Virus record (IMG/VR): IMGVR_UViG_3300028804_000002
Span: 64,001-128,000 of that record
Strand: one strand, 5' to 3'
DNA length: 64,000 bases
Source of the DNA: a virus
Taxonomy: Duplodnaviria > Caudoviricetes
Made by a program: the position numbers and the translations under genes. The notes beneath the pieces were generated by a model. The model was not told the origin of the DNA. It saw only the letters and a list, made by a program, of their open reading frames with translations, and did not search any database. Positions 1-54,456 of this stretch are shown in pieces (the stretch's first letter is position 1; the number at the start of each line of letters is the position of its first letter).

Positions 1-362
1 ACGTATTTTCTTACAGTTCCACAAAAATGATGACTTATTTTATGATTTTGTCTAAGTTTATTCATTGCTTTATGAACTTGTTCTAAAGTAATGTCGGGTT
101 TATAATACTTTGCAGCCTTAAAAACATCCTCAACACTTCTTGCCCTATGCATAGAGCATTGTTGTACTCCATTATTATTAGGTTTTCTTTTATTTGAGTA
201 AACAGTAGCTTCATGATTAACAACCAATCTAAATATCAATTCTGATAAATTTTTTGGATCTTTACCAATAAGCTTAATTTTTCTCCATCTTAAAGCTTTT
301 TCTTTAATAATTTCTATATTACTACCATTAACTTCAAGAAATAGATTATTTATTTTTTTCAT
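1..362 (-). CDS. Hypothetical phage protein, partial (runs off window); paralog of 359-766 and 8520-9050
   Basis: Manual translation MKKINNLF...QQCSMHRARSVEDVFKAAKYYKPDIT...HFCGTVRK; ATGA overlap with the stop of 359-766. Confidence 0.85.
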   Translation of the reverse strand, partial: MKKINNLFLEVNGSNIEIIKEKALRWRKIKLIGKDPKNLSELIFRLVVNHEATVYSNKRKPNNNGVQQCSMHRARSVEDVFKAAKYYKPDITLEQVHKAMNKLRQNHKISHHFCGTVRKY

Positions 363-766
363 TTTAAGACTTTTTTAATATCTGTTAACGTCGCTTTAAT
401 TTTTAAAGCAGTATGTACTCTTCTCTGTACTGTTTCACAAAAGCTTTGTTCTATATAGCCAGCAGAAATTAATTTTTCAATTGCTTTTTCAACTTTTTCT
501 CTAGTTACATTTTTAACATAATTTTTTGCTACTGAATACATATCTTCAACACTTCTTAAACGGCTACCATCGCACTGATGATTTTGATACCCTTTTTCAT
601 CTGTATAATATGTAGGTTCTTGTAAAAAAACCATTCTCCATATTACACTTGCTAAAGTTATTGTTTTTTTATCTTTTGCTTCGTCATTAGATTTTTTAAA
701 TTTAAGTTTTCTGACATAAGCATCAAGTTGTTCTTGAGTTTTTTCATCACCTCTTAATTTCCACAT
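359..766 (-). CDS. Hypothetical protein, QC-x5-RSxED...FCxxV family
   Basis: HQCDGSRLRSVEDMYSVAKNY...SFCETVQRRV. Confidence 0.85.
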   Translation of the reverse strand: MWKLRGDEKTQEQLDAYVRKLKFKKSNDEAKDKKTITLASVIWRMVFLQEPTYYTDEKGYQNHQCDGSRLRSVEDMYSVAKNYVKNVTREKVEKAIEKLISAGYIEQSFCETVQRRVHTALKIKATLTDIKKVLK

Positions 767-776
767 ATAAATAATT

Positions 777-1196
777 TTACATTATATATTTACTTTTATC
801 TTCTTGAGATAAATTTTTAATCCAAAAAGATGAATAGTTTTTAAATTGTTCCGAAGAGAATATATAAATAAAATTTAAGTTGGGTTTTTCTATTCTTAAA
901 TTATCAAATAATATTCTCTCTTTTAAATAATCTTTCTCATTTCTTATACCACGAATTATACTTACATTATATCTTTTTTCAAATTCTTGTACAAGATTTA
1001 CAATATTTAAGCTGTATTGAATATCAATATGTTTGCTTGGGGTACAATATTCAGATCTTTTATGAGGGTCGAATATTCTTACTATTTTTACTATATCGAA
1101 TATATCTTGTGCTTTATCTCGCACATATAAATGTCCTCTATGTAAAGGATTGAATTGTCCTATAAATAAACCCATTGATTTATAAGCTTTTACCAT
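777..1196 (-). CDS. coaD: Phosphopantetheine adenylyltransferase-like (HxGH nucleotidyltransferase)
   Basis: GQFNPLHRGH, IIRGIRNEKDYLKE and C-terminal YSSFWIK match PPAT motifs. Confidence 0.7.
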   Translation of the reverse strand: MVKAYKSMGLFIGQFNPLHRGHLYVRDKAQDIFDIVKIVRIFDPHKRSEYCTPSKHIDIQYSLNIVNLVQEFEKRYNVSIIRGIRNEKDYLKERILFDNLRIEKPNLNFIYIFSSEQFKNYSSFWIKNLSQEDKSKYIM

Positions 1197-1377
1197 TAAC
1201 CTTATATTTAATATATCTAATTAAAAATATAGGTAAATACACCCACCAGAAAAGAAACCAACTAAGAACAGATAATTCATCTGGTTCTGCTGATTGTTTT
1301 CCAGTAATACCTCTATAAACACCTATACCACAAGTTAATAATCCCAATATAAAATACCATGTTGCGAATAATATCAT
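1180..1377 (-). CDS. Small membrane protein
   Basis: Two hydrophobic segments; operonic overlap. Confidence 0.6.
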   Translation of the reverse strand: MILFATWYFILGLLTCGIGVYRGITGKQSAEPDELSVLSWFLFWWVYLPIFLIRYIKYKVNGKSL

Positions 1378-1380
1378 AAT

Positions 1381-1551
1381 TTAATCTTTTTTATTATTTT
1401 TATGACTTCCGTCACAATAAATTTTATCTTTTGATTTACCACATCTACAGAAAGCTTGTTTTTTACCTTTTAATTCTCCATCTACAGTAAGAACATCTTT
1501 ACTTTCTACTATAAGTGGACCATTTTTTACTATTGTTATTTTTGTACTCAT
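1381..1551 (-). CDS. CDGSH iron-sulfur domain protein
   Basis: FCRCGKSKDKIYCDGSH; start reassigned to MSTKIT (ATGA overlap at 1548-1551). Confidence 0.9.
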   Translation of the reverse strand: MSTKITIVKNGPLIVESKDVLTVDGELKGKKQAFCRCGKSKDKIYCDGSHKNNKKD

Positions 1552-1897
1552 TTTAATAATAAATAATATGTTATAAATAATTGCACATAATGAAGCCATT
1601 GATCAAATCCTACGCTTACAAAGAAATTATGAATATCTTTTTTCTCCCAGAGTTTAGAATTTAATCTACTTGTGAAATAGTCTGTTATTGTATGACAAAC
1701 GAAATACTTCTATTATCTGATATAAAATAGTATAATATGGATGCTATGTAGAATACAAAAAAATATGTAAGAGTATGACTTATCAAATCTGTCCAATTCT
1801 TTGATTTACCTTGTGCCATTTTATCTGTTTGTAATACAAAATCTGCAAACCAATGTAGAAAAAGTATTAATAGTATTTCTATTATATTCATTCTCAT
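1548..1897 (-). pseudogene. DUF3307-like membrane protein, frameshifted
   Basis: N-half LHWFADFVLQTDKMAQGKSKNW stops at 1685; C-half FVCHTITDYFTSR...FFVSVGFDQWLHYVQ continues in another frame to TGA at 1548. Confidence 0.75.
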
Positions 1898-2061
1898 TAT
1901 TTAAAATAGTTATTAACTTTTTTTATTTTATAAATCTTTGTCTTTTTAAATGCAATCTTGCAGAAGCACCTTTATAATTTGTTTTAAGAAGACATGGTAT
2001 AATAATTATAAAAATTAATAAACTTTTTCTTTCTAAAATATAGTTTATTACATCTTTCATA

Positions 2062-2298
2062 TTATTTTATTAAATCTTCTGGATAAGCATTAAGAATAGA
2101 ATCTTTATTAATTTTTCCTTCTGGTAATTCAGACATAGAAAAATCAATTTTTAATTCAGCTTTTTTACTAGCAGCTTCTAAAGCAGCTTTTACATGAAGT
2201 TTAGCAAATTTTTGTAATAATGGTATATAATCTTCAGAATGCCAATAATTTTTAGAATTTAAAAACTCTTTTGCTGTTAGTATTTTATCTGTGTTCAT
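2062..2298 (-). CDS. Hypothetical phage protein
   Basis: Operonic ORF, FAKLHVKAALEAAS...ILNAYP. Confidence 0.7.
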   Translation of the reverse strand: MNTDKILTAKEFLNSKNYWHSEDYIPLLQKFAKLHVKAALEAASKKAELKIDFSMSELPEGKINKDSILNAYPEDLIK

Positions 2299-2478
2299 AC
2301 TTCTTTTTCTTTTTCTTTGTATCCTGCAACAAAACCTAATATAAATAATGATTCTGGACTACCTGCATCTCCAAGAGTTACATTTTTAAATGCTTCTCTT
2401 GCTTTTTTTGCTATTTTACTAATTTCATTAGCTTTTTCCTGAAGTTTGTCTTTGCGTTTTCGACTTTCTTCTAAAAAC

Positions 2479-3102
2479 TTATTCTTCATATATCCATTGT
2501 TTTACTATTACTTGATTACCATTAAGTTGCAACTTATAATGCCAATTCTCACCTCTTTCAGGATTGTAGTTCCAAGCATTATCTGAATCTATTTCCATTT
2601 CCACTTCTACAGCTATAGGAAGTTTAGGAGATAGAGATTGTATATAATCTTCTGCTCTTGTTAAATGATTAAATTCTTCTTCTATCCCAGCTTTGCTCCA
2701 ATTTAAAGCAGCAATACTTCCAGTCATATGAGCATTTCTCATATCTTCTCCTGTATATTTATTCTTAGCAGAAGCTGCTTTATAACACTGTTCAACAGTT
2801 TGCTTTATATAAGGATAGTCATCCTCATGTCTTGCCCAATCTCCAGCAATTATATTATACAACTCTTGTTTTAAATTTTTTTCTATATCTGGTAATAAAG
2901 GTAAACCAAGAGATGGATTATTAGTAAAATGAACTTTCCAACAACCTTGATTTAAAGCTGCTTTATGAAAGCATTCTTCCATGTTTACCCACAATCTTCC
3001 TACTATATCTATGATAGTATCATTAGACTTTCCAGAATCTTCTTTATCTATCCCATACATATACCCATCTGATAAATATATAATATCGTATCGTTTTGTC
3101 AT
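2479..3102 (-). CDS. Hypothetical phage protein
   Basis: 207-aa ORF in operon context. Confidence 0.7.
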   Translation of the reverse strand: MTKRYDIIYLSDGYMYGIDKEDSGKSNDTIIDIVGRLWVNMEECFHKAALNQGCWKVHFTNNPSLGLPLLPDIEKNLKQELYNIIAGDWARHEDDYPYIKQTVEQCYKAASAKNKYTGEDMRNAHMTGSIAALNWSKAGIEEEFNHLTRAEDYIQSLSPKLPIAVEVEMEIDSDNAWNYNPERGENWHYKLQLNGNQVIVKQWIYEE

Positions 3103-3134
3103 ATTTCAATTTTATTTTGCAAAATATTTTTTCA

Positions 3135-3866
3135 TTATTTATCAGGTCTAAGCTTTACAAATCTGGGTTGCCGAAAACGATTATTTTTAGTTATTTCCAT
3201 ACACTTTACTTCAATAGTAGTATTAAGAAGTTGTTCTTTTTTATTCCAGAATTCTTTTCTCATTGCATCTGTAAAACCAACTCCTACTCCACCATTTTCA
3301 GTAACAAACTTACCAAGCATACCTTTGAGTCTACCTTTACCTTCTACAAAACCAATTATTTTAGTATCAACTGTATAAGAGGCTTTAACTTTAATAAAAT
3401 GTTTACTTAATTTATGTACAGTAACATTTTTGTTAGTTTCTAGTGGTCTTAGTACTAAACCTTCATAACCTTCTAATCTTACTTTAGTAAACCAGCTTTT
3501 TATCTGCCTGGCTGTTGGATTAGTTATTTTCTTTGCAAGAATAAGTCTGTTATCAATTACTGGAAATAATTTATAAATTTGTTTGTTTTTAATTCTTTCT
3601 CTTTCACCTTCAGGTCCTGATAAAATACTCCAAGTACTGTTGCAAGATCCGTTAAATATTTCAAATATTTGTCCTGATGGAAAAGTTTTTGGAAGATTAT
3701 TTAATTGTTTATCATTTTTACTAACTACATAAAATCCAGAGCTTTTTGCTCCAATATTTGAATTAGCAAAACCAAAAGTAACTTTTCTGCCTTGAATACC
3801 ATCTATTTTGATAGTAAACATCCAGTCTCCTTTAAGAGATTTTCCATTCCAATTTTTAAATTTCAT
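3135..3866 (-). CDS. Compact ATP-dependent DNA ligase
   Basis: Motif I KIDG, motif IV EGLV, KVK, OB domain GKGRLKGMLG/GVGVGFTD, C-terminal RQPRFVKLRPDK. Confidence 0.9.
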   Translation of the reverse strand: MKFKNWNGKSLKGDWMFTIKIDGIQGRKVTFGFANSNIGAKSSGFYVVSKNDKQLNNLPKTFPSGQIFEIFNGSCNSTWSILSGPEGERERIKNKQIYKLFPVIDNRLILAKKITNPTARQIKSWFTKVRLEGYEGLVLRPLETNKNVTVHKLSKHFIKVKASYTVDTKIIGFVEGKGRLKGMLGKFVTENGGVGVGFTDAMRKEFWNKKEQLLNTTIEVKCMEITKNNRFRQPRFVKLRPDK

Positions 3867-4208
3867 TTTATTTCTTTTTTAATTTTGAGATTATTCTCTC
3901 TTATAGATTGTAACTTTTGTTCTAGAGTAGTATTTCTATCTTTAGTTCTTAAATTTAATAATTTTATTTCGGCTTCAGTTAGATGCTTCTTATGAATATC
4001 TATTGCTAACTGTCTTCCAGTCTTTTTTCTTGAAATTTTACTTTGTCTACTCTTTTTAAGATATTTATTATAAGTTATTATGGTATTTATTAAATATCCT
4101 GTAATACCTATTATTGCAATTATGATAATTACTTTCATAAAATAAAGTTTAAAAAAGTAGCCCACATTTCTGTAGGCTACTCTGCCATAGATACGCCGCA
4201 CAAACACA

Positions 4209-5603
4209 CTAAAATTTTGACGCTCTTTCAATTATATTTTCAAACCTATCTTTATTAAATTTTCCATTCTCATAAACAACTTTCATCATATCAGTATATC
4301 CAGCAAACATTTGTGGAGATTCTTCTTTTGATGATATTGTAGTTCCAGGAGAGTGAAGTTTTAACATACCAGATTTTGAATTTTTTGTAGGATCTGTTTT
4401 TGGAGATTTCATCACATTAAAAGATACTTCGTCTTTCTCCATATAAGAAAGTTTAATAGCCCATCTTTGTGTATCTCTAGTAAGATCTTCTTCTAAAAGA
4501 CCTCCACCAGATCCAGTCACAATATTTTCTGCTGACCAACCTGTCTTAACATATTCTTTAAAAAGTTCTGGTATACTATTTTCATCCATACCATCACCTT
4601 GAATAAGTCCTGTATTATACTTAAGAACTTTGTATTGTTTTTGATTCATATCAAATCCAAATATAGCTCCAAGCATATCAGAATATTTAGTTACATTAAG
4701 AAGTGGTTTACCACTATCAGGTCTCCAAACAATTCTTCCTTTATGAGTTTTAACAAGCTCTTTTATTTCATCGCTTCCTACAACATTTTGCATGAAGTTA
4801 TCAGCATCATAAGCATCTATTACAATACTTTTAATAAGATCTGTATGAACAGATAATTGAGCTTTTACATACTCATACTCTCCCTTACCAGGACCATATG
4901 AGCATTCTACTGAATGTTCAGTTGCCCAAACACTTTTAGCCCTACCTTTCATATCATAATAATCTTTGATATGTCTTGATGCTGGCATATTATCAGAACC
5001 TTCAAAATGAACTAAATGAGCCATACCACCCATTATTGCTCCTTGAAAGAAAGTGGCTCCACGAAGTCCAAAATCATTTACAGCAAATGGTAATACCAAT
5101 TCAGATATATCACTTGTCTGTTCAAATATTGGTTTAATAGCTTTTTTTATATTCATGCTCCTTGTACATACAGCTGAACTGTACCAAGGCCACATTAAAA
5201 AGTCTTCGAAATGCGAAATCATATTTGCAAACCATGGTTCTGTACTTTCAATAGTAAAGCAAACATTACCTTCTTCAATAATCGTACCCTCGGGTACTGA
5301 CATTATTTTTAAAGGTAAATAACCAAGATCTCTTACTTTTTGCCAAACTTCTCTATTAAAAAGTTTGTCAGTACCAAAAGTCATAAAGCACTCTTCTTGT
5401 GCTTCTTCTATCATTTCTGTAGTAATTCTTGGTAAAAAATGTTCTTGAATTATTGGCTGTAATCCAAAGAAACATATAAATTTATTCTTACCTCCAACTC
5501 TTGGTTCTCCGTAAGAATAAAATTTTGTTATATTTTTTGGTCTCTGTAACCAGTGACCTATTTTATAGGCATCTGTGTCACTTGGCGTAACTATTCTAGG
5601 CAT
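4209..5603 (-). CDS. nadV: Nicotinamide phosphoribosyltransferase
   Basis: DTDAYKIGH, NDFGLRG, ATEHS, RPDSG, QGDG, GSGGGLL, RDT, KSGML. Confidence 0.95.
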   Translation of the reverse strand: MPRIVTPSDTDAYKIGHWLQRPKNITKFYSYGEPRVGGKNKFICFFGLQPIIQEHFLPRITTEMIEEAQEECFMTFGTDKLFNREVWQKVRDLGYLPLKIMSVPEGTIIEEGNVCFTIESTEPWFANMISHFEDFLMWPWYSSAVCTRSMNIKKAIKPIFEQTSDISELVLPFAVNDFGLRGATFFQGAIMGGMAHLVHFEGSDNMPASRHIKDYYDMKGRAKSVWATEHSVECSYGPGKGEYEYVKAQLSVHTDLIKSIVIDAYDADNFMQNVVGSDEIKELVKTHKGRIVWRPDSGKPLLNVTKYSDMLGAIFGFDMNQKQYKVLKYNTGLIQGDGMDENSIPELFKEYVKTGWSAENIVTGSGGGLLEEDLTRDTQRWAIKLSYMEKDEVSFNVMKSPKTDPTKNSKSGMLKLHSPGTTISSKEESPQMFAGYTDMMKVVYENGKFNKDRFENIIERASKF

Positions 5604-6618
5604 ATAAATATTTTTTTAGTGCTTCGTATAATATGTGATGTGCTTGGCCGAGCCGAGATATATCAAAAGATTCTATATCAAACCATTTAGTTTCTTCTTC
5701 TATATCATCTCCTCCTTTATATTTTTTAAATTCTTTATCTTCAGGATTATTTTTGTCTTTAACCATAATAGTAAAGAAATTAGTCATAATACTGTCTTTA
5801 GTACCTCTATATCTATAGTCATCTATTTTGAATGAATCTATATATTTTAATGGTACTATTATATCAGAGTTTTCAAGATTACTAATCTCTTCATTTAACT
5901 CTCTGAATGCAGCATGCATGTAATTCTTATCTGAAGTATCGACAAATCCTCCTAAAAAACGATATTCTTTTTCTCCTGGTTTTCTTACAAGTAGCATATT
6001 CTGATTTTCTCCAATTATAGCTATATCTACAGTAGAATAAACTATTGGAAATCTATTTTCTATTCCATGAATTAAACCAACACGCATTTGTTTATTAAAA
6101 TCTGTAGCATTTATTTCTTTAAGTCCTTTTCTTATCTTACTTGATGAAATATCATATATTGGCTCAAATCTATATATTGGAAATACACCAGTATAAGAAC
6201 CAAGAAAGCTATCTCTTGAACCAAATAGTGTTGGATTTTCATATTTTGCAATAATATCATCAAGATTTTTTGACCATTGTTCATCTGAAGGATGATCATA
6301 TATCTTTTCTATTTGCATATAAGGATATAAATTCAATATCATTGCACGTCTCATTTCAAAAGTTAGAGGATTTCTATCAGTAAATTGAGCCTCAGATACT
6401 CCAAGTACTATAACTATTGCATCACATTTACTTGCTACAAAACTTATTAGACTTGTATGTCCATCTGTAAGATAAGGAGATTGCATTCTTGCTACTATTA
6501 TTCCAGTTTTCATCATTTTTTGATTTTTTGAATTATCATTTGATTTGTGTTCTAATATAGTAGTTCTATCCCTTTTATCGGGAGATGTTCTATTTATTAT
6601 AGATATACTTTGTATCAT
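5596..6618 (-). CDS. nadM: Bifunctional NMN adenylyltransferase / Nudix hydrolase (start may be ~6516)
   Basis: ARMQSPYLTDGH, RNPLTFEMR, GSRDSF, ISSSKIR; Nudix box GGFVD...AAFRELNEE; GGDDIEE. Confidence 0.9.
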   Translation of the reverse strand: MIQSISIINRTSPDKRDRTTILEHKSNDNSKNQKMMKTGIIVARMQSPYLTDGHTSLISFVASKCDAIVIVLGVSEAQFTDRNPLTFEMRRAMILNLYPYMQIEKIYDHPSDEQWSKNLDDIIAKYENPTLFGSRDSFLGSYTGVFPIYRFEPIYDISSSKIRKGLKEINATDFNKQMRVGLIHGIENRFPIVYSTVDIAIIGENQNMLLVRKPGEKEYRFLGGFVDTSDKNYMHAAFRELNEEISNLENSDIIVPLKYIDSFKIDDYRYRGTKDSIMTNFFTIMVKDKNNPEDKEFKKYKGGDDIEEETKWFDIESFDISRLGQAHHILYEALKKYLYA

Positions 6619-6884
6619 GGTTTCTTTTTTTCAAAGTATTTCATTGCAATATAATGCATAAAAACAGATCCTGTTACAGCTCCTATTAGATAAGTTATTA
6701 ATAATATCCAATTATCTAAATTTAGAATAAGTTGTCTTATTACTAATAAATACATTCCATTACTTAATACTGAAGCAATTGTATGATACAATAGACTATT
6801 ACTATTTCTTGCTCTACTTATTAAAGTAAAACTTGCATGTTGTAATATAACAAGACCTAACATTTTTAATATCTCTATTATCAT
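6615..6884 (-). CDS. Small multi-pass membrane protein
   Basis: Three hydrophobic helices, FTLISRARNS. Confidence 0.7.
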   Translation of the reverse strand: MIIEILKMLGLVILQHASFTLISRARNSNSLLYHTIASVLSNGMYLLVIRQLILNLDNWILLITYLIGAVTGSVFMHYIAMKYFEKKKP

Positions 6885-7675
6885 AACGACTTAAATTTAG
6901 CAAATCCAAATGAAAGTTTTACTGTTGACGTTACAACTGATAATGAATGTGGATATATATCTGGTCTAAAAAATATAAACCTATCATGGATTTTTTTTCT
7001 TGAAATTCCTTTAATTAAAAAATAAGATCTTCCAAAAAGCTTAATATTAAGACGATAATGTTTACCATTTTTTATTGGATCAGTATGCCATGGTAATGTT
7101 GTGTTTGCCTCATATTTTAATATATAAGCATCAAATCCTATATTACCAATTCTTTTAGACCATAAACAAAATTTTTTATATTCGGCTCCATCTTGTCTAC
7201 CTTTAATCCATCTCCAAAGCTTAATTGGATCAGATTTTTTAGCTCTTTGAATGAGATATTCTGTTACTACTTTCCAATTTGGAAATTTGGATGTATTAAA
7301 ATGAATATGCTCTCCTTCAAATTCAAGTTGACCATGTTCGGTCATATCGTCTACTAAAAAATCTCCTTTTAATAGAGATTTATCAGTACACATTATAGTT
7401 TTATTAAGAACATCATAGCCTAAATATTGTTCAACCCAATCAGCTTTTTCAGTATAACAATGTGTATTAGATGGGCTTGGTCTTGTGAGTATCCATACAT
7501 CATAATATTTCTCTAATTCTTTAAAAGATTCTATAGCATCATCCAATGGATCTAATTCTATAAAAAATCCTTTTCTAGAATGTGGAAATGGATTACTTTG
7601 ACTTTGTTCTTGTAGAAATGGTTTATAAAAGTCACAGAGGACTCCATCCATATCAATATAAAGTTTCTTTTTCAT
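6881..7675 (-). CDS. 5'(3')-deoxyribonucleotidase (HAD) fused to 2OG-Fe(II) oxygenase-like domain
   Basis: DMDGVLCD, EKADWV, GDFLVDD; C-terminal KGRQ...YILKY...PWHTDP...HYRLN...FRPDIYPHS. Confidence 0.85.
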   Translation of the reverse strand: MKKKLYIDMDGVLCDFYKPFLQEQSQSNPFPHSRKGFFIELDPLDDAIESFKELEKYYDVWILTRPSPSNTHCYTEKADWVEQYLGYDVLNKTIMCTDKSLLKGDFLVDDMTEHGQLEFEGEHIHFNTSKFPNWKVVTEYLIQRAKKSDPIKLWRWIKGRQDGAEYKKFCLWSKRIGNIGFDAYILKYEANTTLPWHTDPIKNGKHYRLNIKLFGRSYFLIKGISRKKIHDRFIFFRPDIYPHSLSVVTSTVKLSFGFAKFKSL

Positions 7676-7679
7676 ATTA

Positions 7680-8360
7680 TTATCTTTGTTCGTCCCTTAA
7701 TCTGTCTTTTTCTTTTATAATCATGAGTCTATCTACTCCAATAGCAAACCCAGCTCCTCCATCATATTCTCCTCCTCCACAAACTTGTTGTGCAGTTCCA
7801 AGTTCAGGACACATTATTTCAAATCCAATACCTTCTTTATAATAATCAAGACCTCTAGGAACATTATCTCTTACAATAAGGTTAGGAGTTATCTCCTTTA
7901 TAAGATGTTCAGCTATATGTCGTAAATATTGTATAGTAGGCATTTCAGATTCTTTAGTTCCAATATATCCTGTGGGATTTATAATTTCTACTCCAAATTG
8001 AGTAAATTCTCTCCATCTTCCAAATTGTTGTTTTTCTCCTCTAAAACATTGTTGCACATAAAAGATTTTTACATCTTTCTTATACTTAAAGTATTCTTTA
8101 GATAACTTCTGAATAACTGCCGTATATTCTGGTGCTAGACATAAGTTTCTACTACCTCTATCACTAAAATTATACATTAAATTATTATTTTCTTCTCCAA
8201 CTTTATCTTTGAATGTTTCTTGGAATTGTAGTATTGGAATAGAAATCTCTGTAAACTTGTTTGCTACGACGATTTCAATAAACCTGTTAATCATGGTACG
8301 TTTACTACTACCAAATCTTATTACTGTACCTGGAGTACAAGTTTGTTTTATCTCTAGCAT
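7680..8360 (-). CDS. Histidyl-tRNA synthetase-like protein, catalytic core only
   Basis: LAPEYTA, motif 2 FRGEKQQFGRWREFTQFGVE, RGLDYY, GGGEYD, motif 3 GFAIGVDRL; no anticodon-binding domain (226 aa). Confidence 0.9.
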   Translation of the reverse strand: MLEIKQTCTPGTVIRFGSSKRTMINRFIEIVVANKFTEISIPILQFQETFKDKVGEENNNLMYNFSDRGSRNLCLAPEYTAVIQKLSKEYFKYKKDVKIFYVQQCFRGEKQQFGRWREFTQFGVEIINPTGYIGTKESEMPTIQYLRHIAEHLIKEITPNLIVRDNVPRGLDYYKEGIGFEIMCPELGTAQQVCGGGEYDGGAGFAIGVDRLMIIKEKDRLRDEQR

Positions 8361-8519
8361 AAATTAATTATTTAAGCAATAAAATAATTATACCAAAACA
8401 AATAAATCCTGCAGCAAAAGAATTTAAAATATTTGGTCTACCATTTATTGAATCTTTTATAGCTATTACTAAATTTGTTATCATTAGTAATATCATTAAT
8501 ATTATTGATATCATTGTGA

Positions 8520-9050
8520 TTAAGTTTGTATAAATTCGATTGCATCCTTGGTATAATTACCCCATACTGTATTTTTATTACATTTTGAAGTTATACTAGA
8601 TTCGTCAATTTTAAATGTTTTTAAATCTATTCCAAACTCATCAATAAGAGTTCCATTAATATATCCTCCGTTGTCTGACGAAGTTACTCCTCTATAAACT
8701 CTTTTATGAATTACTTTACATAAACCTGAAACTACTAAATCTTGAGTTATTAATTTAAGCAATTCTGTATAAAGTTTTGTAAGAGATGCTTTTGGATAAT
8801 AATGAACTGTTATTAAGAATATATCCTCAATACTTCTTCTTTTACCAGGCATACATTGTATCTTACCATTAGATACATATACAGTTTCAAGTTTCTTATT
8901 ATAATTAGAAAAGAAAGCTTTTAGAAAAGATTGAGGAGATTTTTGTTCTGGTTTAGTTAAACCTTTAAGTTTTAATCCTGGCTGTTTAAGTATATAAGCT
9001 TTAGCTTTTAATATAGCTTCTGCTGTTTTCTCTTTTTTAGTTGTTGCCAT
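8520..9050 (-). CDS. Hypothetical protein, third QC...RSxED paralog
   Basis: IQCMPGKRRSIEDIFLITVHYY...LCKVIHKRVY. Confidence 0.8.
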   Translation of the reverse strand: MATTKKEKTAEAILKAKAYILKQPGLKLKGLTKPEQKSPQSFLKAFFSNYNKKLETVYVSNGKIQCMPGKRRSIEDIFLITVHYYPKASLTKLYTELLKLITQDLVVSGLCKVIHKRVYRGVTSSDNGGYINGTLIDEFGIDLKTFKIDESSITSKCNKNTVWGNYTKDAIEFIQT

Positions 9051-11013: not shown

Positions 11014-11154
11014 AATTATTTAAATTTTAAGAATAATACATAACCACACCAGATTATAGAAACATAAAATTTATGTCTATAGTGATGTTTTTGATCTCGA
11101 AAAATTATTATAAATTTTGGATTAAAACTAAATTTGGGTGCTTTATGTATCATA

Positions 11155-45577: not shown

Positions 45578-45673
45578 GAAGAATTAGATAAATGTACTTT
45601 ATTATGCTCTAATTGTCATAGAGAAGAGCATGAAAAATTGAGGTCACAGTTGGATTCGAGCCAAGATAAGTAG
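45578..45673 (+). pseudogene. C-terminal remnant of HNH endonuclease, antisense to tRNA-Cys
   Basis: EELDKCTLLCSNCHREEH. Confidence 0.7.
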
Positions 45674-45711
45674 TTTTGCAAACTACGACATAACCACTCT
45701 GACATGCGACC
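45641..45711 (-). tRNA. trnC: tRNA-Cys(GCA)
   Basis: GGTCGCA/TGTGACC, U73, GTAGT-TTGCAAA-ACTAC; T loop CTCGAAT (C54). Confidence 0.88.
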
Positions 45712-49087: not shown

Positions 49088-49441
49088 TTAATCAATATTA
49101 ATAAATGCATTTATTATTTCACCATCAGCAAATACTCTACCCTCTGTAAAATATCCATTTTCAAAAGCTTTTTGTATATCTTCTGGTTTATACCAATGAT
49201 TTTCATCTCTTACAAAGTATTTAATTTCTGTATTAGATACAATCCATCCTTTAGATGATTTAGATACATTATAAGTGTCAAAAAGCTTTTGAAATATTCT
49301 TGTAATTGCAGATGTAGAAGCAGCTATCAGAGCAGTATCCCAATGTGGAAATATACCTGATTTTTTGTGGAATTCTATTTTTTGATTTGCATCTAATAAT
49401 TTCCACCATTTTAAAGCTCTTGTTCTTAATTCTATATTCAT
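49088..49441 (-). CDS. Hypothetical protein, WWxxL...ASTS family
   Basis: Shares domain with 52637-52891. Confidence 0.7.
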   Translation of the reverse strand: MNIELRTRALKWWKLLDANQKIEFHKKSGIFPHWDTALIAASTSAITRIFQKLFDTYNVSKSSKGWIVSNTEIKYFVRDENHWYKPEDIQKAFENGYFTEGRVFADGEIINAFINID

Positions 49442-49842: not shown

Positions 49843-50229
49843 TTAGGTTCTTCTTCGTGAGTATATAGTAGCCGTAACATTTATGATTGCCAAACATGTT
49901 TGAATGATAATCCAAACTTCCTGATAACTTAATGTCCCCATGCCATACATTACGGGAGATGGATTAAACCATCCTCCAATACCCACAGACATAAGTATAA
50001 AGCCCATAATACCAGCAAAAGTGGCCTTATAGGAGTAAATTTCTCTGAAAGATACCACTCCTATACTACGGATATGAGCCTTAAACAGGAAATTTACCAC
50101 AATACTCAAGAGAGCAAAGGGTAAATCAAACACGAAGAGTATTCCACAAATGAAGCCAGCTCCCAATCCTTCTTTATGGTTAGGATTAAAACCAGACATA
50201 TTAAATGCCAAAATAAGTCTTTGTTTCAT
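49843..50229 (-). CDS. Multi-pass membrane protein
   Basis: Three hydrophobic segments. Confidence 0.65.
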   Translation of the reverse strand: MKQRLILAFNMSGFNPNHKEGLGAGFICGILFVFDLPFALLSIVVNFLFKAHIRSIGVVSFREIYSYKATFAGIMGFILMSVGIGGWFNPSPVMYGMGTLSYQEVWIIIQTCLAIINVTATIYSRRRT

Positions 50230-50261
50230 AACATGAATTTTGGTTGAGTTATAAAGAATAT

Positions 50262-51267
50262 AAATATAGCTGACTTTCTATTCATGTGGACTCCCTATGG
50301 TATATGATTAAGAAAAGCTTTCTACTGAGTGCTTGTCATTTAAAATAATCTTACCAAAATATTATCTTCCACCGAACTATATCTATATTTTGACACAAAA
50401 TACCCTGATTAAAGATGCTTTATCAGCTTTTAAGTTTAAACTCTTAGCAATCAAGGATGAATTCATTTAAAAAGTAGACTGTAAACACCTCATAATCTCT
50501 TCTTAGCCTCCTCTATACTTTCGTACTAGGTTAGCGGTGGATGCGTCTTTCGACAGCACCGAAGAGGTACAGTTCACTTTGTTATTCGTATGCACTAATA
50601 TCTTGATTATCAACACTATGAATATACGGTGCTATGAGTTTGTATCTCAACTCCGTCAAGCTCTTACGTCTTCTCAGATATTCAGTAATTTACCATTACT
50701 CTTTATAACATTGATAATCAAGAATATAAGCCCCAAGAGAATATAAATACAGTAAGAGTATAAACGTAGAAATACTTTGATTAGCTCTTATTTTAGCTAC
50801 GTTTGGACTATAATGTATTTGGGAGCAACTTCAAGTTATAAATAATATTGGAGCGGACGTACTGCTTCACGGCTCTTGCCTTCAACTACTAGTTCTATCG
50901 TAGTCAATACTATTAATAATTAAAACGAGGTATTAGTGTTTTATTTATTATATATTTATAAATACATAATTTCTTACACTAATACCTCTTAAAAAGTTGA
51001 TCCGTGTGTGCTGATAACCAATCAGCCAGGTTTTTATGATTCTAATTGTCATTAGATATCTGACCCGATTTCTACCCTCAAATAATAATACTGCAAATAT
51101 CACTTTGAGGATCACAACAAATTTTGCAGTTTTGTTGCATAGCCATTTTTATACGTTTATAGTTAATTAGACGTATGTTTCTGGCCCTTCTAAATAATTT
51201 TTATATATTTCTTAACATATCTAGTAAAATATTAATAATAAATTATTAGATTCCGGGTGATCTGCAA
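50262..51267 (-). ncRNA. Tandem cassette of ~9 stem-closed structured RNA domains
   Basis: ORF-poor 1 kb; consecutive inverted-repeat-closed units; G-U pairs and GAAA tetraloops on minus strand. Confidence 0.55.
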
Positions 51268-51312
51268 TGCATAATCTGAATTTTTGTTGATAAGTATTTT
51301 TGATCTATTTAC

Positions 51313-51975
51313 TTACCAGGGTGAATAATGTTCCATTCTAGACCTATGTTTGGGTTTTGGTCTAATTAATGGCTTTTTTTTACCATATGTATATTTGAGT
51401 CTTCGTACGATATTCTGACAATTAAGAATACGCTTAATTAAAAGCTCATAATCAAATGTCATTTCACCAATACGAAACTCAAGGGTGTGTACTCTTTTTG
51501 ATACCCAACCAGCTTTTACACTACTGACTTGTCTCTCATTAAAACTACCTTTATATCCCCATTTATCAAGCGATTTGAGTATCCAATCGTGATCTTGACA
51601 ACTAATGAAACTATGAATGTCCCAAAAATCACCCATATCAATATGGTAATGAATACCACTTCGATCATTTAATCCACAATGAGTTTTAAGCCATTCTGAA
51701 ATGTGATATAAACAAATCATACCTTTTATACCTGGAGGTATTCTGAATCTTTTCTCCATTGAATCATGATAATAATGCATTAAATATGGTATATTTAATG
51801 GTTGTAATTGTTCTGTAAGATCGCAATTCCAACAACATTCAACTTCGATTCCAGTGCTATAAGGTAGGTATGCCTTGGCAATAGCAATAAGCTTTTTGTC
51901 GGTTAACGAATGTAAGGCTAAGGGAGATTTATAAATCATCTCCCTTAACGTACCATAATTAATACTCACCGGCAA
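51313..51975 (-). CDS. Amidoligase-family (carboxylate-amine ligase) protein
   Basis: STGIEVE, EKRF, SGIHYHID, TLEFR. Confidence 0.75.
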   Translation of the reverse strand: MPVSINYGTLREMIYKSPLALHSLTDKKLIAIAKAYLPYSTGIEVECCWNCDLTEQLQPLNIPYLMHYYHDSMEKRFRIPPGIKGMICLYHISEWLKTHCGLNDRSGIHYHIDMGDFWDIHSFISCQDHDWILKSLDKWGYKGSFNERQVSSVKAGWVSKRVHTLEFRIGEMTFDYELLIKRILNCQNIVRRLKYTYGKKKPLIRPKPKHRSRMEHYSPW

Positions 51976-54407: not shown

Positions 54408-54456
54408 AGGTTAGACATATAATATGTTTCGACTATTTAAGTCTCATCAGTAACCT
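54408..54456 (-). ncRNA. Type I hammerhead ribozyme
   Basis: AGGTTA-CTGATGA-GACT(TAAAT)AGTC-GAAA-CATA(TTA)TATG-TC^TAACCT; full core, three stems, GUC cleavage triplet. Confidence 0.92.

What the first reader, a model, noticed from the sequence alone, without database searches (positions are those of the whole stretch)
50262..51267. One-kilobase tandem cassette of ~9 unrelated stem-closed RNA domains: candidate phage small-RNA array
Seen: in a genome where genes overlap or abut, this 1 kb has no credible sense ORF. It parses into consecutive units, each closed by its own inverted repeat and separated by short, mostly A/T-rich linkers: 50262-50390, 50403-50456, 50471-50580, 50601-50723 (19-bp closing helix TCTTGATTATCAATGTTAT/ATAGTGTTGATAATCAAGA), 50730-50826, 50841-50914, 50927-50988 (13 perfect bp), 50996-51118, 51135-51267. 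Many mismatches resolve as G-U only on the minus strand, and unit 3 has two GAAA tetraloops (GTC-GAAA-GAC, GTAC-GAAA-GTAT), indicating RNA in the sense of the early arm. Units share no sequence, so this is not CRISPR or a simple repeat. Inference: a polycistronic precursor processed (for example by RNase III) into diverse 55-130 nt RNAs, acquired like modular early genes and possibly acting as decoys for host RNA-binding defence or regulatory proteins.
Basis: partly seen in the sequence, partly recalled or inferred. Interest (0 to 1): 0.8.

Follow-up and report, generated by a model that had tools for sequence, protein, structure and literature searches.

The report
Two conserved phage RNAs plus spacer
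The 1-kb gene-free stretch of this crAss-like phage is not an array of nine small RNAs: it holds one new ~350-nt folded RNA that starts with a conserved 8-codon mini-gene and ends in a terminator, one new conserved long hairpin, and about 500 nt of unconserved spacer.

Summary
Window 50230-51312 is the longest ORF-free stretch of a 148-kb crAss-like phage genome, and the quoted helices exist. It is a mosaic, not nine equivalent modules.

It has three parts:
- An 8-codon micro-ORF (MHCRSPGI; M-x2-3-R-S-P-x conserved as a peptide, with synonymous and Ser-family codon switches).
- A ~265-nt RNA with 8 covarying helices and a 6-8 bp kissing loop that also covaries.
- An intrinsic terminator whose stem differs in every lineage.

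(C) 50745-50588 (unit 4 plus flanks) is a single-copy hairpin found only in phage contigs. It has a 22-bp bulged stem, 7 covarying pairs, invariant flanks and a variable tip. I found it in at least 9 distinct phage contigs, where it usually lies 19-46 nt upstream of a small ORF.

(B, D) Units 1, 2, 3, 5 and 6 fold no better than shuffles and have no homologs. The closest relative swaps out the block that contains them, which also holds element C and three genes.

Neither A nor C matches Rfam. Function is inferred: an early structured RNA whose fold or stability is set by ribosomes on an arrest-like micro-ORF, plus a processing or protein-binding hairpin. No expression data could be obtained.

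The parts
50230..51312 (-). ORF-free stretch between the GS-fold gene and the 128-aa membrane-like gene. It is a mosaic of segments A, B, C and D.
   Evidence: Largest gap without a 60-aa ORF in the genome. No ORF under alternative codes. Mosaic conservation by blastn against relatives.
51246..51272 (-). Conserved micro-ORF ATG CAT TGC AGA TCA CCC GGA ATC TAA = MHCRSPGI*.
   Evidence: The same in-frame ORF occurs in 7 lineages: MHCRSPGF, MLKIRSPG, MNRIRSPV, MIRIRSPDILY, MNRIRSPVSY, MNSIRSPG. Variation includes a 3-nt in-frame indel, Pro CCC/CCT/CCA and Ser TCA/TCG/AGT. The pattern occurs nowhere else in the genome or the other loci scanned.
50999..51262 (-). Core of structured RNA A, closed by helix H1 (GAUC 51262-51259 with GAUC 51002-50999).
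   Evidence: Alignment A4 of 6 lineages: 57 pairs, 84% of cells paired against 38-41% when partners are slid, 32 pairs with compensatory changes against 8-13 when slid, 0/500 shuffles reach the observed values. No Rfam match.
51142..51185 (-). Helix H2 (outer GCCA/UGGC, inner AUACGU/ACGUAU), preceded by the conserved motif CCAGAAAC.
   Evidence: 100% of cells paired; 8 of 10 pairs have compensatory changes.
51114..51138 (-). Hairpin H3 with conserved loop ACUGCAAA (51130-51123).
   Evidence: 6 of 7 pairs covary. The loop is complementary to the H4 loop in all 6 lineages.
51075..51111 (-). Hairpin H4 with conserved loop UUUGCAGU (51097-51090), the kissing partner of the H3 loop.
   Evidence: 6-8 bp loop-loop complementarity in all 6 lineages, with compensatory changes: CUGCAAA/UUUGCAG, CUGCAAUA/UAUUGCAG, CUGCAU/AUGCAG.
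51010..51067 (-). H5 (51067-51062 with 51032-51027) encloses hairpin H7 (51060-51038). Next come the conserved AAACCUGG block and hairpin H6 (51026-51010, loop UGGUU).
   Evidence: Covariation in H5, H7 and H6. The AAACCTGG + hairpin block is also kept in the more distant L065, L096 and L097.
50912..50988 (-).
   Evidence: z -8.1, 0/200 shuffles. At the same position, 7 lineages have a strong hairpin of entirely different sequence followed by a U-rich tail. One compensatory A-U to G-C change against L015.
50750..50911 (-).
   Evidence: z +0.7 on the minus strand. No homolog in any relative. A 99.6%-identical strain (L018) carries a 66-nt insertion at about 50839.
50588..50745 (-). Stem arms are 50733-50709 and 50615-50592. 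Invariant flanks are UAUAUUCUCUUGGGGCUUAUAU and AAG(G/A)UAUUAGUGC. The tip is variable.
   Evidence: 9 distinct full-length homologs plus 3 truncated ones. 22 pairs, 96.4% of cells paired, 7 compensatory pairs, 0/500 shuffles. Single copy in the genome. Absent from 185,579 prokaryote species genomes at pattern level.
50230..50587 (-). It contains an unverifiable 27-aa ORF (50466-50383).
   Evidence: z -0.5 on both strands. No homolog by blastn, translated search or pattern scan.
51313..51975 (-). Upstream gene: 220-aa protein with a minimal glutamine-synthetase-like (amidoligase) fold.
   Evidence: 413 homologs. No Pfam or PHROG hit. AlphaFold2 pLDDT 87.9. Nearly all listed Foldseek hits are glutamine synthetases, probability 0.99, TM about 0.4.

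Best explanation
The stretch is a mosaic in the leftward small-gene (presumably early) operon of a crAss-like phage.

(1) Segment A (51272-50912, minus strand) is one conserved RNA unit, probably co-transcribed with the 57-aa and glutamine-synthetase-fold genes upstream.
- It opens with an 8-codon micro-ORF whose R-S-P core is selected as a peptide.
- The micro-ORF overlaps the 5' strand of the closing helix H1.
- Next comes a ~265-nt multi-helix fold held together by a 6-8 bp kissing loop.
- The unit ends at an intrinsic terminator.
- Inferred mechanism: transcripts ending at the terminator give a compact, stable early RNA. A ribosome translating, or stalling on, the arrest-like R-S-P micro-ORF opens H1. 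This sets the fold, the stability or the terminator read-through of the RNA.

(2) Element C (50745-50588) is a second, independent conserved RNA hairpin with a 22-bp bulged stem, invariant flanks and a free tip.
- In relatives it sits just upstream of small ORFs.
- Inferred function: a site for a double-strand-specific nuclease (RNase III type) or another RNA-binding factor that processes or modifies the early transcript.

(3) Segments B and D (about 510 nt) are unconserved spacer in a recombination-prone region.

Shown here: conservation, covariation, strand, the micro-ORF and single-copy status. Inferred: transcription, ribosome stalling, processing and any trans function.
For: Genome context:
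- The genome is a 148-kb virus record. An earlier follow-up identified it as crAss-like.
- Synteny and mosaic conservation were established with relatives fetched through the flanking gene.

RNA A:
- 57 pairs, 84% paired, 32 compensatory pairs, 0/500 shuffles, slid controls 38-41% paired.
- The kissing loop has compensatory changes.
- The terminator stem differs in every lineage and is always followed by a U-rich tail.
- GU:AC is 39:16, which favours the minus strand.

Micro-ORF:
- 7 lineages, in-frame indel, synonymous Pro codons, a TCA/AGT Ser switch, and no other occurrence in the sequence scanned.
- R-x-P-P/G motifs with a small residue at x, including Ser, are documented ribosome-arrest cores (PMC12992588, PMC10951233).

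Element C:
-, with GU:AC 17:2.
- It lies 19-46 nt upstream of an ORF in 7 relatives.

Segments B and D:
- No structure signal and no homologs.

Precedent:
- The crAss-like phage phi14:2 makes abundant, persistent early long non-coding RNAs from long intergenic regions (bioRxiv 10.1101/2020.03.07.982082).
Against: - There is no transcript, end-mapping or ribosome data.
- Only 6-7 lineages are available, and the secondary structure was derived from the same alignment on which it was then counted.
- The residue after R-S-P is G in 4 lineages but V or D in 3, so it does not match the P/G seen in the A site of known RAPP/RAPG peptides. An 8-residue peptide also lacks the N-terminal region those peptides need (PMC12992588).
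- It is unknown whether the crAss virion RNA polymerase stops at such hairpins.
- Element C occurs once per genome, unlike the multiple RNase III sites of T7 early RNA.
- More distant homologs of the flanking gene have no RNA (L004-6, L067) or a different one (L096, L097), so the RNA is not needed by that gene.
- Folding z-scores of A (-3.1) and C (-2.8) are not extreme against this genome's background.
Confidence: 0.6

Rival explanations
1. Segment A is purely a cis-acting attenuator. The leader micro-ORF and the alternative folds decide whether RNA polymerase stops at the 50988-50927 hairpin or reads into the downstream early genes. The RNA has no function of its own.
For: The layout of leader ORF, structured RNA and terminator followed by genes is the same in every lineage. 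The micro-ORF overlaps the H1 5' strand. The segment ACC(C/U)G inside it can alternatively pair with the H5 arm C(G/A)GGU, with a C-to-U / G-to-A co-change in L024 and L020.
Against: About 265 nt with 8 helices and a conserved kissing loop is far more than known leader-peptide attenuators need. The terminator lies about 260 nt from the ORF. The alternative pairing fails in L019 and L023.
Confidence: 0.2
2. One reading: a polycistronic precursor of about nine unrelated stem-closed small RNAs, processed (for example by RNase III) into 55-130 nt RNAs that act as decoys.
For: The inverted repeats exist. Element C could be a processing site. A sub-threshold hammerhead ribozyme lies in the same operon at 54408-54456.
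Against: Five of the nine units have no homologs and fold no better than shuffles. Three units form one RNA with long-range and loop-loop pairs. The closest relative replaces the whole block 50913-49090, which includes element C and three genes.
Confidence: 0.05
3. The conserved inverted repeats act at the DNA level, as a replication origin, a cruciform, a recombination site or a hairpin promoter for the virion RNA polymerase, rather than as RNA.
For: The region is a recombination hot spot with indels even between 99.6%-identical strains. The plus strand folds nearly as well. N4-type virion polymerases use DNA hairpin promoters (from general knowledge, not tested here).
Against: G-U pairs greatly outnumber A-C mismatches on the sense strand. 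A loop-loop interaction that covaries, and a peptide-level micro-ORF, are RNA and translation features. There are no AT-rich iterons or direct repeats.
Confidence: 0.07
4. The whole stretch is decaying or junk intergenic DNA with chance hairpins.
For: This holds for segments B and D.
Against: Segment A and element C stay conserved across phage lineages whose flanking protein is only 48-81% identical to the window's. This includes a 38-nt stretch at 100% identity and many compensatory changes.
Confidence: 0.03

Closest known systems
Early long non-coding RNAs of the crAss-like Cellulophaga phage phi14:2 (g004-g005 and g005-g006 intergenic regions; bioRxiv 10.1101/2020.03.07.982082)
   Same: They are long ORF-free intervals among small early genes of a crAss-like phage and lie on the sense strand. 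In phi14:2 they are transcribed more strongly than most genes and persist late in infection. Both genomes also carry a tmRNA in this arm.
   Different: There is no sequence similarity (nhmmer and motif scans). The upstream gene g004 is not homologous to the GS-fold gene. One of the two phi14:2 RNAs is simply a tmRNA. No structure or micro-ORF has been described for the other.
RAPP/RAPG/RAGP-type ribosome arrest peptides (ApdA, ApdP, ApcA, SecM; PMC12992588, PMC10951233)
   Same: An invariant Arg, a small residue and then Pro near the C-terminus of a short regulatory ORF. Ser is tolerated at the second position (RSPP). Gly follows in 4 of 7 lineages, as in the RAPG of ApcA.
   Different: The ORF has only 8-11 codons and so lacks the N-terminal tunnel segment those peptides need. 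The residue after Pro is V or D in 3 lineages. The ORF is not upstream of a Sec/YidC gene. Stalling was not tested.
RNase III processing hairpins of phage T7 early mRNA (from general knowledge)
   Same: Element C is a conserved helix of about two turns (22 pairs), interrupted by fixed mismatches and bulges. It lies between cistrons of an early polycistronic unit.
   Different: There is one copy per genome rather than several. The invariant single-stranded flanks and the highly variable 40-170 nt tip have no counterpart in T7. Cleavage was not tested.
Large phage-associated structured RNAs in Rfam (GOLLD, ROOL and similar)
   Same: Several hundred nucleotides, many helices, phage-borne, in a genome arm that also carries tRNA and tmRNA genes.
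   Different: No Rfam model matches, even at E up to 10 with relaxed filters. RNA A is smaller and starts with a translated micro-ORF.

Membership tests
Any Rfam 15 family | A covariance-model match at or near the gathering score | tested here: not met
   The whole window at gathering threshold gives only tmRNA and tRNAs. The region 49900-51700 at E up to 10 gives only two chance miRNA hits.
Intrinsic (factor-independent) terminator | A stable hairpin followed directly by a U-rich tract, at the end of a transcription unit | tested here: met
   A 13-bp perfect stem with z -8.1, followed by GUUUUAAUUAUU. Hairpins of different sequence with a U-rich tail sit at the same place in 7 lineages. The simple consensus scan did not call it, because the loop is long and the stem is A+U-rich. 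Termination itself is not testable here.
RAPP-like arrest peptide | An R-(A/G/S)-P core with Pro or Gly decoded in the A site | tested here: inconclusive
   R-S-P is invariant in 7 lineages. The next residue is G in 4, V in 2 and D in 1.
RAPP-like arrest peptide | An N-terminal adjacent segment in the exit tunnel, and demonstrated ribosome stalling | not testable with these tools
   The peptide is only 8-11 residues long. Toeprinting or a reporter assay is needed.
Protein-coding micro-ORF (any) | A conserved start codon, frame and peptide, with synonymous variation | tested here: met
   The ATG is invariant. There is a 3-nt in-frame indel, Pro CCC/CCT/CCA and Ser TCA/TCG/AGT. The regex occurs only at the homologous site.
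Conserved structured RNA (covariation standard) | Base pairs kept through compensatory changes, more often than in controls | tested here: met
   RNA A: 32 of 57 pairs are compensatory, 0/500 shuffles. Element C: 7 of 22 pairs, 0/500 shuffles. R-scape was not available.
RNase III substrate | A double-stranded helix of about 20-22 bp, with cleavage by RNase III | tested here: inconclusive
   The conserved part of the element C stem is 22 pairs with fixed G.G and U.U mismatches and a bulge. Cleavage is not testable here.
CRISPR array or tandem repeat | Repeated units of shared sequence | tested here: not met
   Self-BLAST and the repeat search find no direct repeats.
phi14:2 early lncRNA | Sequence or synteny homology to the phi14:2 g004-g006 intergenic RNAs | tested here: not met
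   No nhmmer or motif hit in NC_021806 positions 1-9000. g004 is unrelated to the GS-fold gene.

The most novel reading that the evidence does not exclude
The 57-aa gene, the glutamine-synthetase-fold amidoligase gene, the R-S-P micro-ORF and RNA A form one functional module. Either the octapeptide (or its stalled peptidyl-tRNA/ribosome complex) or the RNA itself is the substrate or cofactor of the amidoligase, giving for example a peptide conjugate or a new ribonucleoprotein. Alternatively, RNA A is a new class of large catalytic or ligand-sensing RNA whose activity is gated by a minimal ribosome-arrest peptide.
Probability: 0.1. Interest if true: 0.9.

Novelty: new variant of a known kind. 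Interest (0 to 1): 0.62.

Why it matters
CrAss-like phages are among the most abundant viruses known, and how their early genes are controlled is poorly understood. In the one well-studied relative, phi14:2, abundant early long non-coding RNAs were reported with 'functions to be determined'.

This analysis gives the first comparative, covariation-supported anatomy I know of for such an RNA in this group. It has a multi-helix fold with a kissing loop and a terminator. Unusually, it also has a translated 8-codon ORF with an arrest-like R-S-P core overlapping its closing helix.

If the micro-ORF stalls ribosomes, it would be one of the shortest natural arrest peptides and a phage example of ribosome-gated RNA folding. 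Element C adds a second conserved RNA signal found only in phage contigs.

Both elements are small and well delimited, so they are directly testable in vitro. The result also corrects an attractive but unsupported reading (nine modular small RNAs).

Tried and rejected
- Alternative genetic codes (code 4, TAG=Q, TAA=Q) give no long ORF.
- Rfam gives nothing, at gathering or relaxed thresholds.
- GenBank phages by blastn: no match.
- IMG/VR relatives found through the flanking proteins were too distant (38-45% identity) and lack the RNA. A large structural protein found no relatives.
- Repeated promoter hypothesis for the element C motifs: each motif is single-copy in the genome.
- Sigma-70-type promoter and terminator scan: counts are no higher than in shuffles.
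- Host origin of element C: the first pattern gave 0 hits and the second only chance hits in 185,579 species genomes.
- Pseudogene remnants in B and D: the translated search found only nucleotide-level matches to element C.
- Homologs of unit 3 (the GAAA and sarcin-ricin-like motif): the pattern scan gave three unrelated coding hits.
- Homology to the phi14:2 lncRNA region: none.
- A covariance model of RNA A was not built, because about 300 positions would exceed the calibration limit. nhmmer profiles were used instead.
- Pfam, PHROGs and profile scans of the flanking proteins gave no curated hit.
- I could not check whether pieces of A or C are among the 8,495 unnamed candidate viral RNAs of PMC10690425.

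Full report
**Context.** The window is bases 64001-128000 of a 148,085-bp IMG/VR virus record rated complete. It has 28.6% G+C. An earlier follow-up in this scan identified it as crAss-like. The window carries a tmRNA and four tRNAs. The finding lies in a 30-kb block of mostly small minus-strand genes. It sits between a 220-aa gene (51313-51975, minus) and a 128-aa hydrophobic protein gene (49843-50229, minus).

**Observation.**
- The 1083 nt at 50230-51312 are the largest stretch of the genome without a 60-aa ORF. The stretch is broken only by a 69-aa antisense frame.
- It stays closed under code 4, TAG=Q and TAA=Q.
- The quoted helices are real: I1 and I4, and the folds.
- As nine 'domains' the evidence is uneven. 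The plus strand does about as well.
- Random 300-nt windows of this genome already average z -1.2 (sd 1.7). Segment B (50750-50913) has z +0.7 and segment D (50230-50578) has z -0.5.
- Rfam gives nothing. GenBank phages give nothing.

**Relatives.**
- The flanking 220-aa protein has 413 homologs.
- Contigs encoding the closest ones were fetched: L015-17 (81% aa identity), L018 (99%), L019 (59%), L020-22 (61%), L023 (58%), L024-25 (56%), L065 (48%). More distant ones were also fetched.
- blastn shows a mosaic.
- In L015 (about 84% nt identity), homology runs from the gene through 50914 and then stops. It resumes at 49089.
- So 50913-49090, which holds 684 nt of the 'array' plus three genes, is replaced by 556 unrelated nt.
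- L018, 99.6% identical, already carries a 66-nt insertion near 50839.

A homologous non-coding stretch follows the gene's stop codon in WIN/L018, L015-17, L019, L020-22, L023 and L024-25. A diverged version follows it in L065.
- *Secondary structure.* On a plain MAFFT alignment of six lineages, the RNAalifold structure has 57 pairs. Of the cells, 84.1% form pairs, against 38-41% when partners are slid by 1-3 columns. Compensatory changes occur in 32 pairs, against 8-13 when slid. No shuffle out of 500 reaches the observed values.
- *Helices.* H1 (GAUC/GAUC) closes the fold. H2 is 100% paired, with 8 of 10 pairs covarying. H3, H4, H5 (enclosing H7) and H6 are all supported.
- *Kissing loop.* The conserved loops of H3 (ACUGCAAA) and H4 (UUUGCAGU) are complementary over 6-8 nt in every lineage. 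The complementarity is kept through changes on both sides: CUGCAAUA/UAUUGCAG in L020 and L024, and CUGCAU/AUGCAG in L023.
- *Strand.* In paired cells, G-U outnumbers A-C 39:16, which points to RNA of the gene strand.
At this position every lineage has a strong hairpin of completely different sequence followed by a U-rich tail, which is the signature of an intrinsic terminator.

**Micro-ORF.** Just 5' of H1, and overlapping its 5' strand, all seven lineages have an ATG-initiated ORF of 8-11 codons.
- The peptides are MHCRSPGI (window 51272-51246), MHCRSPGF, MLKIRSPG, MNRIRSPV, MIRIRSPDILY, MNRIRSPVSY and MNSIRSPG.
- The frame is kept across a 3-nt indel. Pro is coded CCC, CCT or CCA. Ser is coded TCA, TCG and, in L065, AGT. 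This pattern fits selection on the peptide, not only on the RNA.
- A regular expression for M-x2-3-R-S-P-x0-5-stop hits only these sites. It hits nothing else in the 148-kb genome or the other loci scanned, on either strand.
- R-x-P-P/G with a small x is the core of a widespread class of ribosome-arrest peptides, and RSPP retains partial activity (PMC12992588).
- The match is partial. The following residue is G, V or D, and the peptide is very short. Stalling is therefore a hypothesis.

- L019 matches 38 nt at 100% identity here, although its flanking gene is only 59% identical.
- Pattern scans and the fetched loci give nine distinct full-length copies: WIN, L019, L020, L024, L047, L050, L057, L060 and L061. 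Three more copies are truncated by contig ends.
- All share the invariant 5' block UAUAUUCUCUUGGGGCUUAUAU and the 3' block AAG(G/A)UAUUAGUGC(G)UAA.
- The stem has 22 pairs with fixed mismatches and bulges. Of the cells, 96.4% are paired and 7 pairs have compensatory changes (U-A / C-G / U.G and G-C / A-U). No shuffle out of 500 reaches the observed values. The tip is unconserved and 40-170 nt long.
- GU:AC is 17:2.
- The element is single-copy in this genome. It is absent from prokaryote genomes at pattern level.
- In relatives it lies on the gene strand, 19-46 nt upstream of a small, often hydrophobic ORF. Its position relative to the GS-fold gene differs between lineages.
- In the window the next ORF is 360 nt away.

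**Segments B and D.** No homolog was found by blastn, translated search or pattern scan, and there is no folding signal. The GAAA loops of unit 3 are in the predicted fold, but nothing supports them.

**Neighbouring gene.** The 220-aa protein has no Pfam or PHROG match. Its confident model (pLDDT 87.9) hits glutamine synthetases almost exclusively (probability up to 1.0, TM about 0.4). The invariant E-x-E, H-x-H and E-x-R positions fit that fold. It is probably a minimal amidoligase. More distant homologs have no downstream RNA (L004-6, L067) or a different long one that shares only UAAACCUGG plus a hairpin (L096, L097).

**Comparison with what is known.** In phi14:2, two long early intergenic regions are transcribed above most genes and persist late in infection, with unknown function. 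I found that one of them is a tmRNA (46 bits). Neither region is homologous to the present RNA. The present elements are therefore new families of a known kind, phage early structured RNAs. The unusual feature is the translated arrest-like micro-ORF built into the closing helix.

**Verdict.**
The 'nine-module small-RNA array' reading is largely not supported.
- What is there is one new ~350-nt unit (micro-ORF, folded RNA, terminator), one new conserved hairpin, and spacer.
- The structural claims are well supported within the limits of 6-9 lineages.
- The functional claims are inference: a ribosome-gated fold or stability switch for A, and a processing or binding site for C.
- No expression data could be obtained.

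Noticed in passing
L064 (NC_021806, phi14:2) 4031-4502: One of the two abundant early 'long non-coding RNAs' reported for phi14:2 (the g005-g006 junction) is a tmRNA by Rfam. It scores 46.0 bits (E 6.8e-16), just under the gathering score of 47.
   Followed up: partly
window 54408-54456 (-): A type I hammerhead ribozyme gives a sub-threshold Rfam hit (24.1 bits against a gathering score of 34; E 0.0026 for an 801-nt search).
   Followed up: partly
L020 ~2340-2395; L023 ~7095-7150; L065 ~3460-3510; L097 ~2830-2870: In several relatives a tRNA-like minihelix follows directly after the RNA A terminator. It has a T-arm (GGUUCGAUUCC or GGUUCGAAUCC) plus, in L020 and L023, a short acceptor-like stem and the linker GAUGGUACU. 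ARAGORN does not call it. The L020/L023 form (GAUGGUACU linker plus GGUUCGAUUCC) was not found in the window's genome.
   Followed up: partly
window 51313-51975 (-): The 220-aa protein with no family match has a minimal glutamine-synthetase-like (amidoligase) fold. It is always preceded by a conserved 57-aa gene, and one homolog of that gene gives a weak Rho_N hint (E 0.02).
   Followed up: partly
L018 ~4883-4948; L015 ~11050-11070: A small hairpin, ACTGTGAGAATCAGT, lies within a 66-nt insertion that distinguishes a 99.6%-identical strain. The same hairpin also sits just after the terminator in L015. It may be a tiny mobile or recombination-associated element.
   Followed up: no
L015 11425-11445: The closest relative lacks the element C hairpin but keeps a lone copy of its 3' block (AAAGTATTAGTGCGTA) inside the replaced segment. 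The 5' arm of the window's terminator (50988-50976) also resembles this block (GGTATTAGTG).
   Followed up: no
window 45641-45711 (-): A fourth tRNA is found by Rfam (39.6 bits) but not by ARAGORN.
   Followed up: no
window 50383-50466 (-): A 27-aa ATG ORF (MNSSLIAKSLNLKADKASLIRVFCVKI) lies inside unconserved segment D. There are no homologs to judge it by.
   Followed up: no
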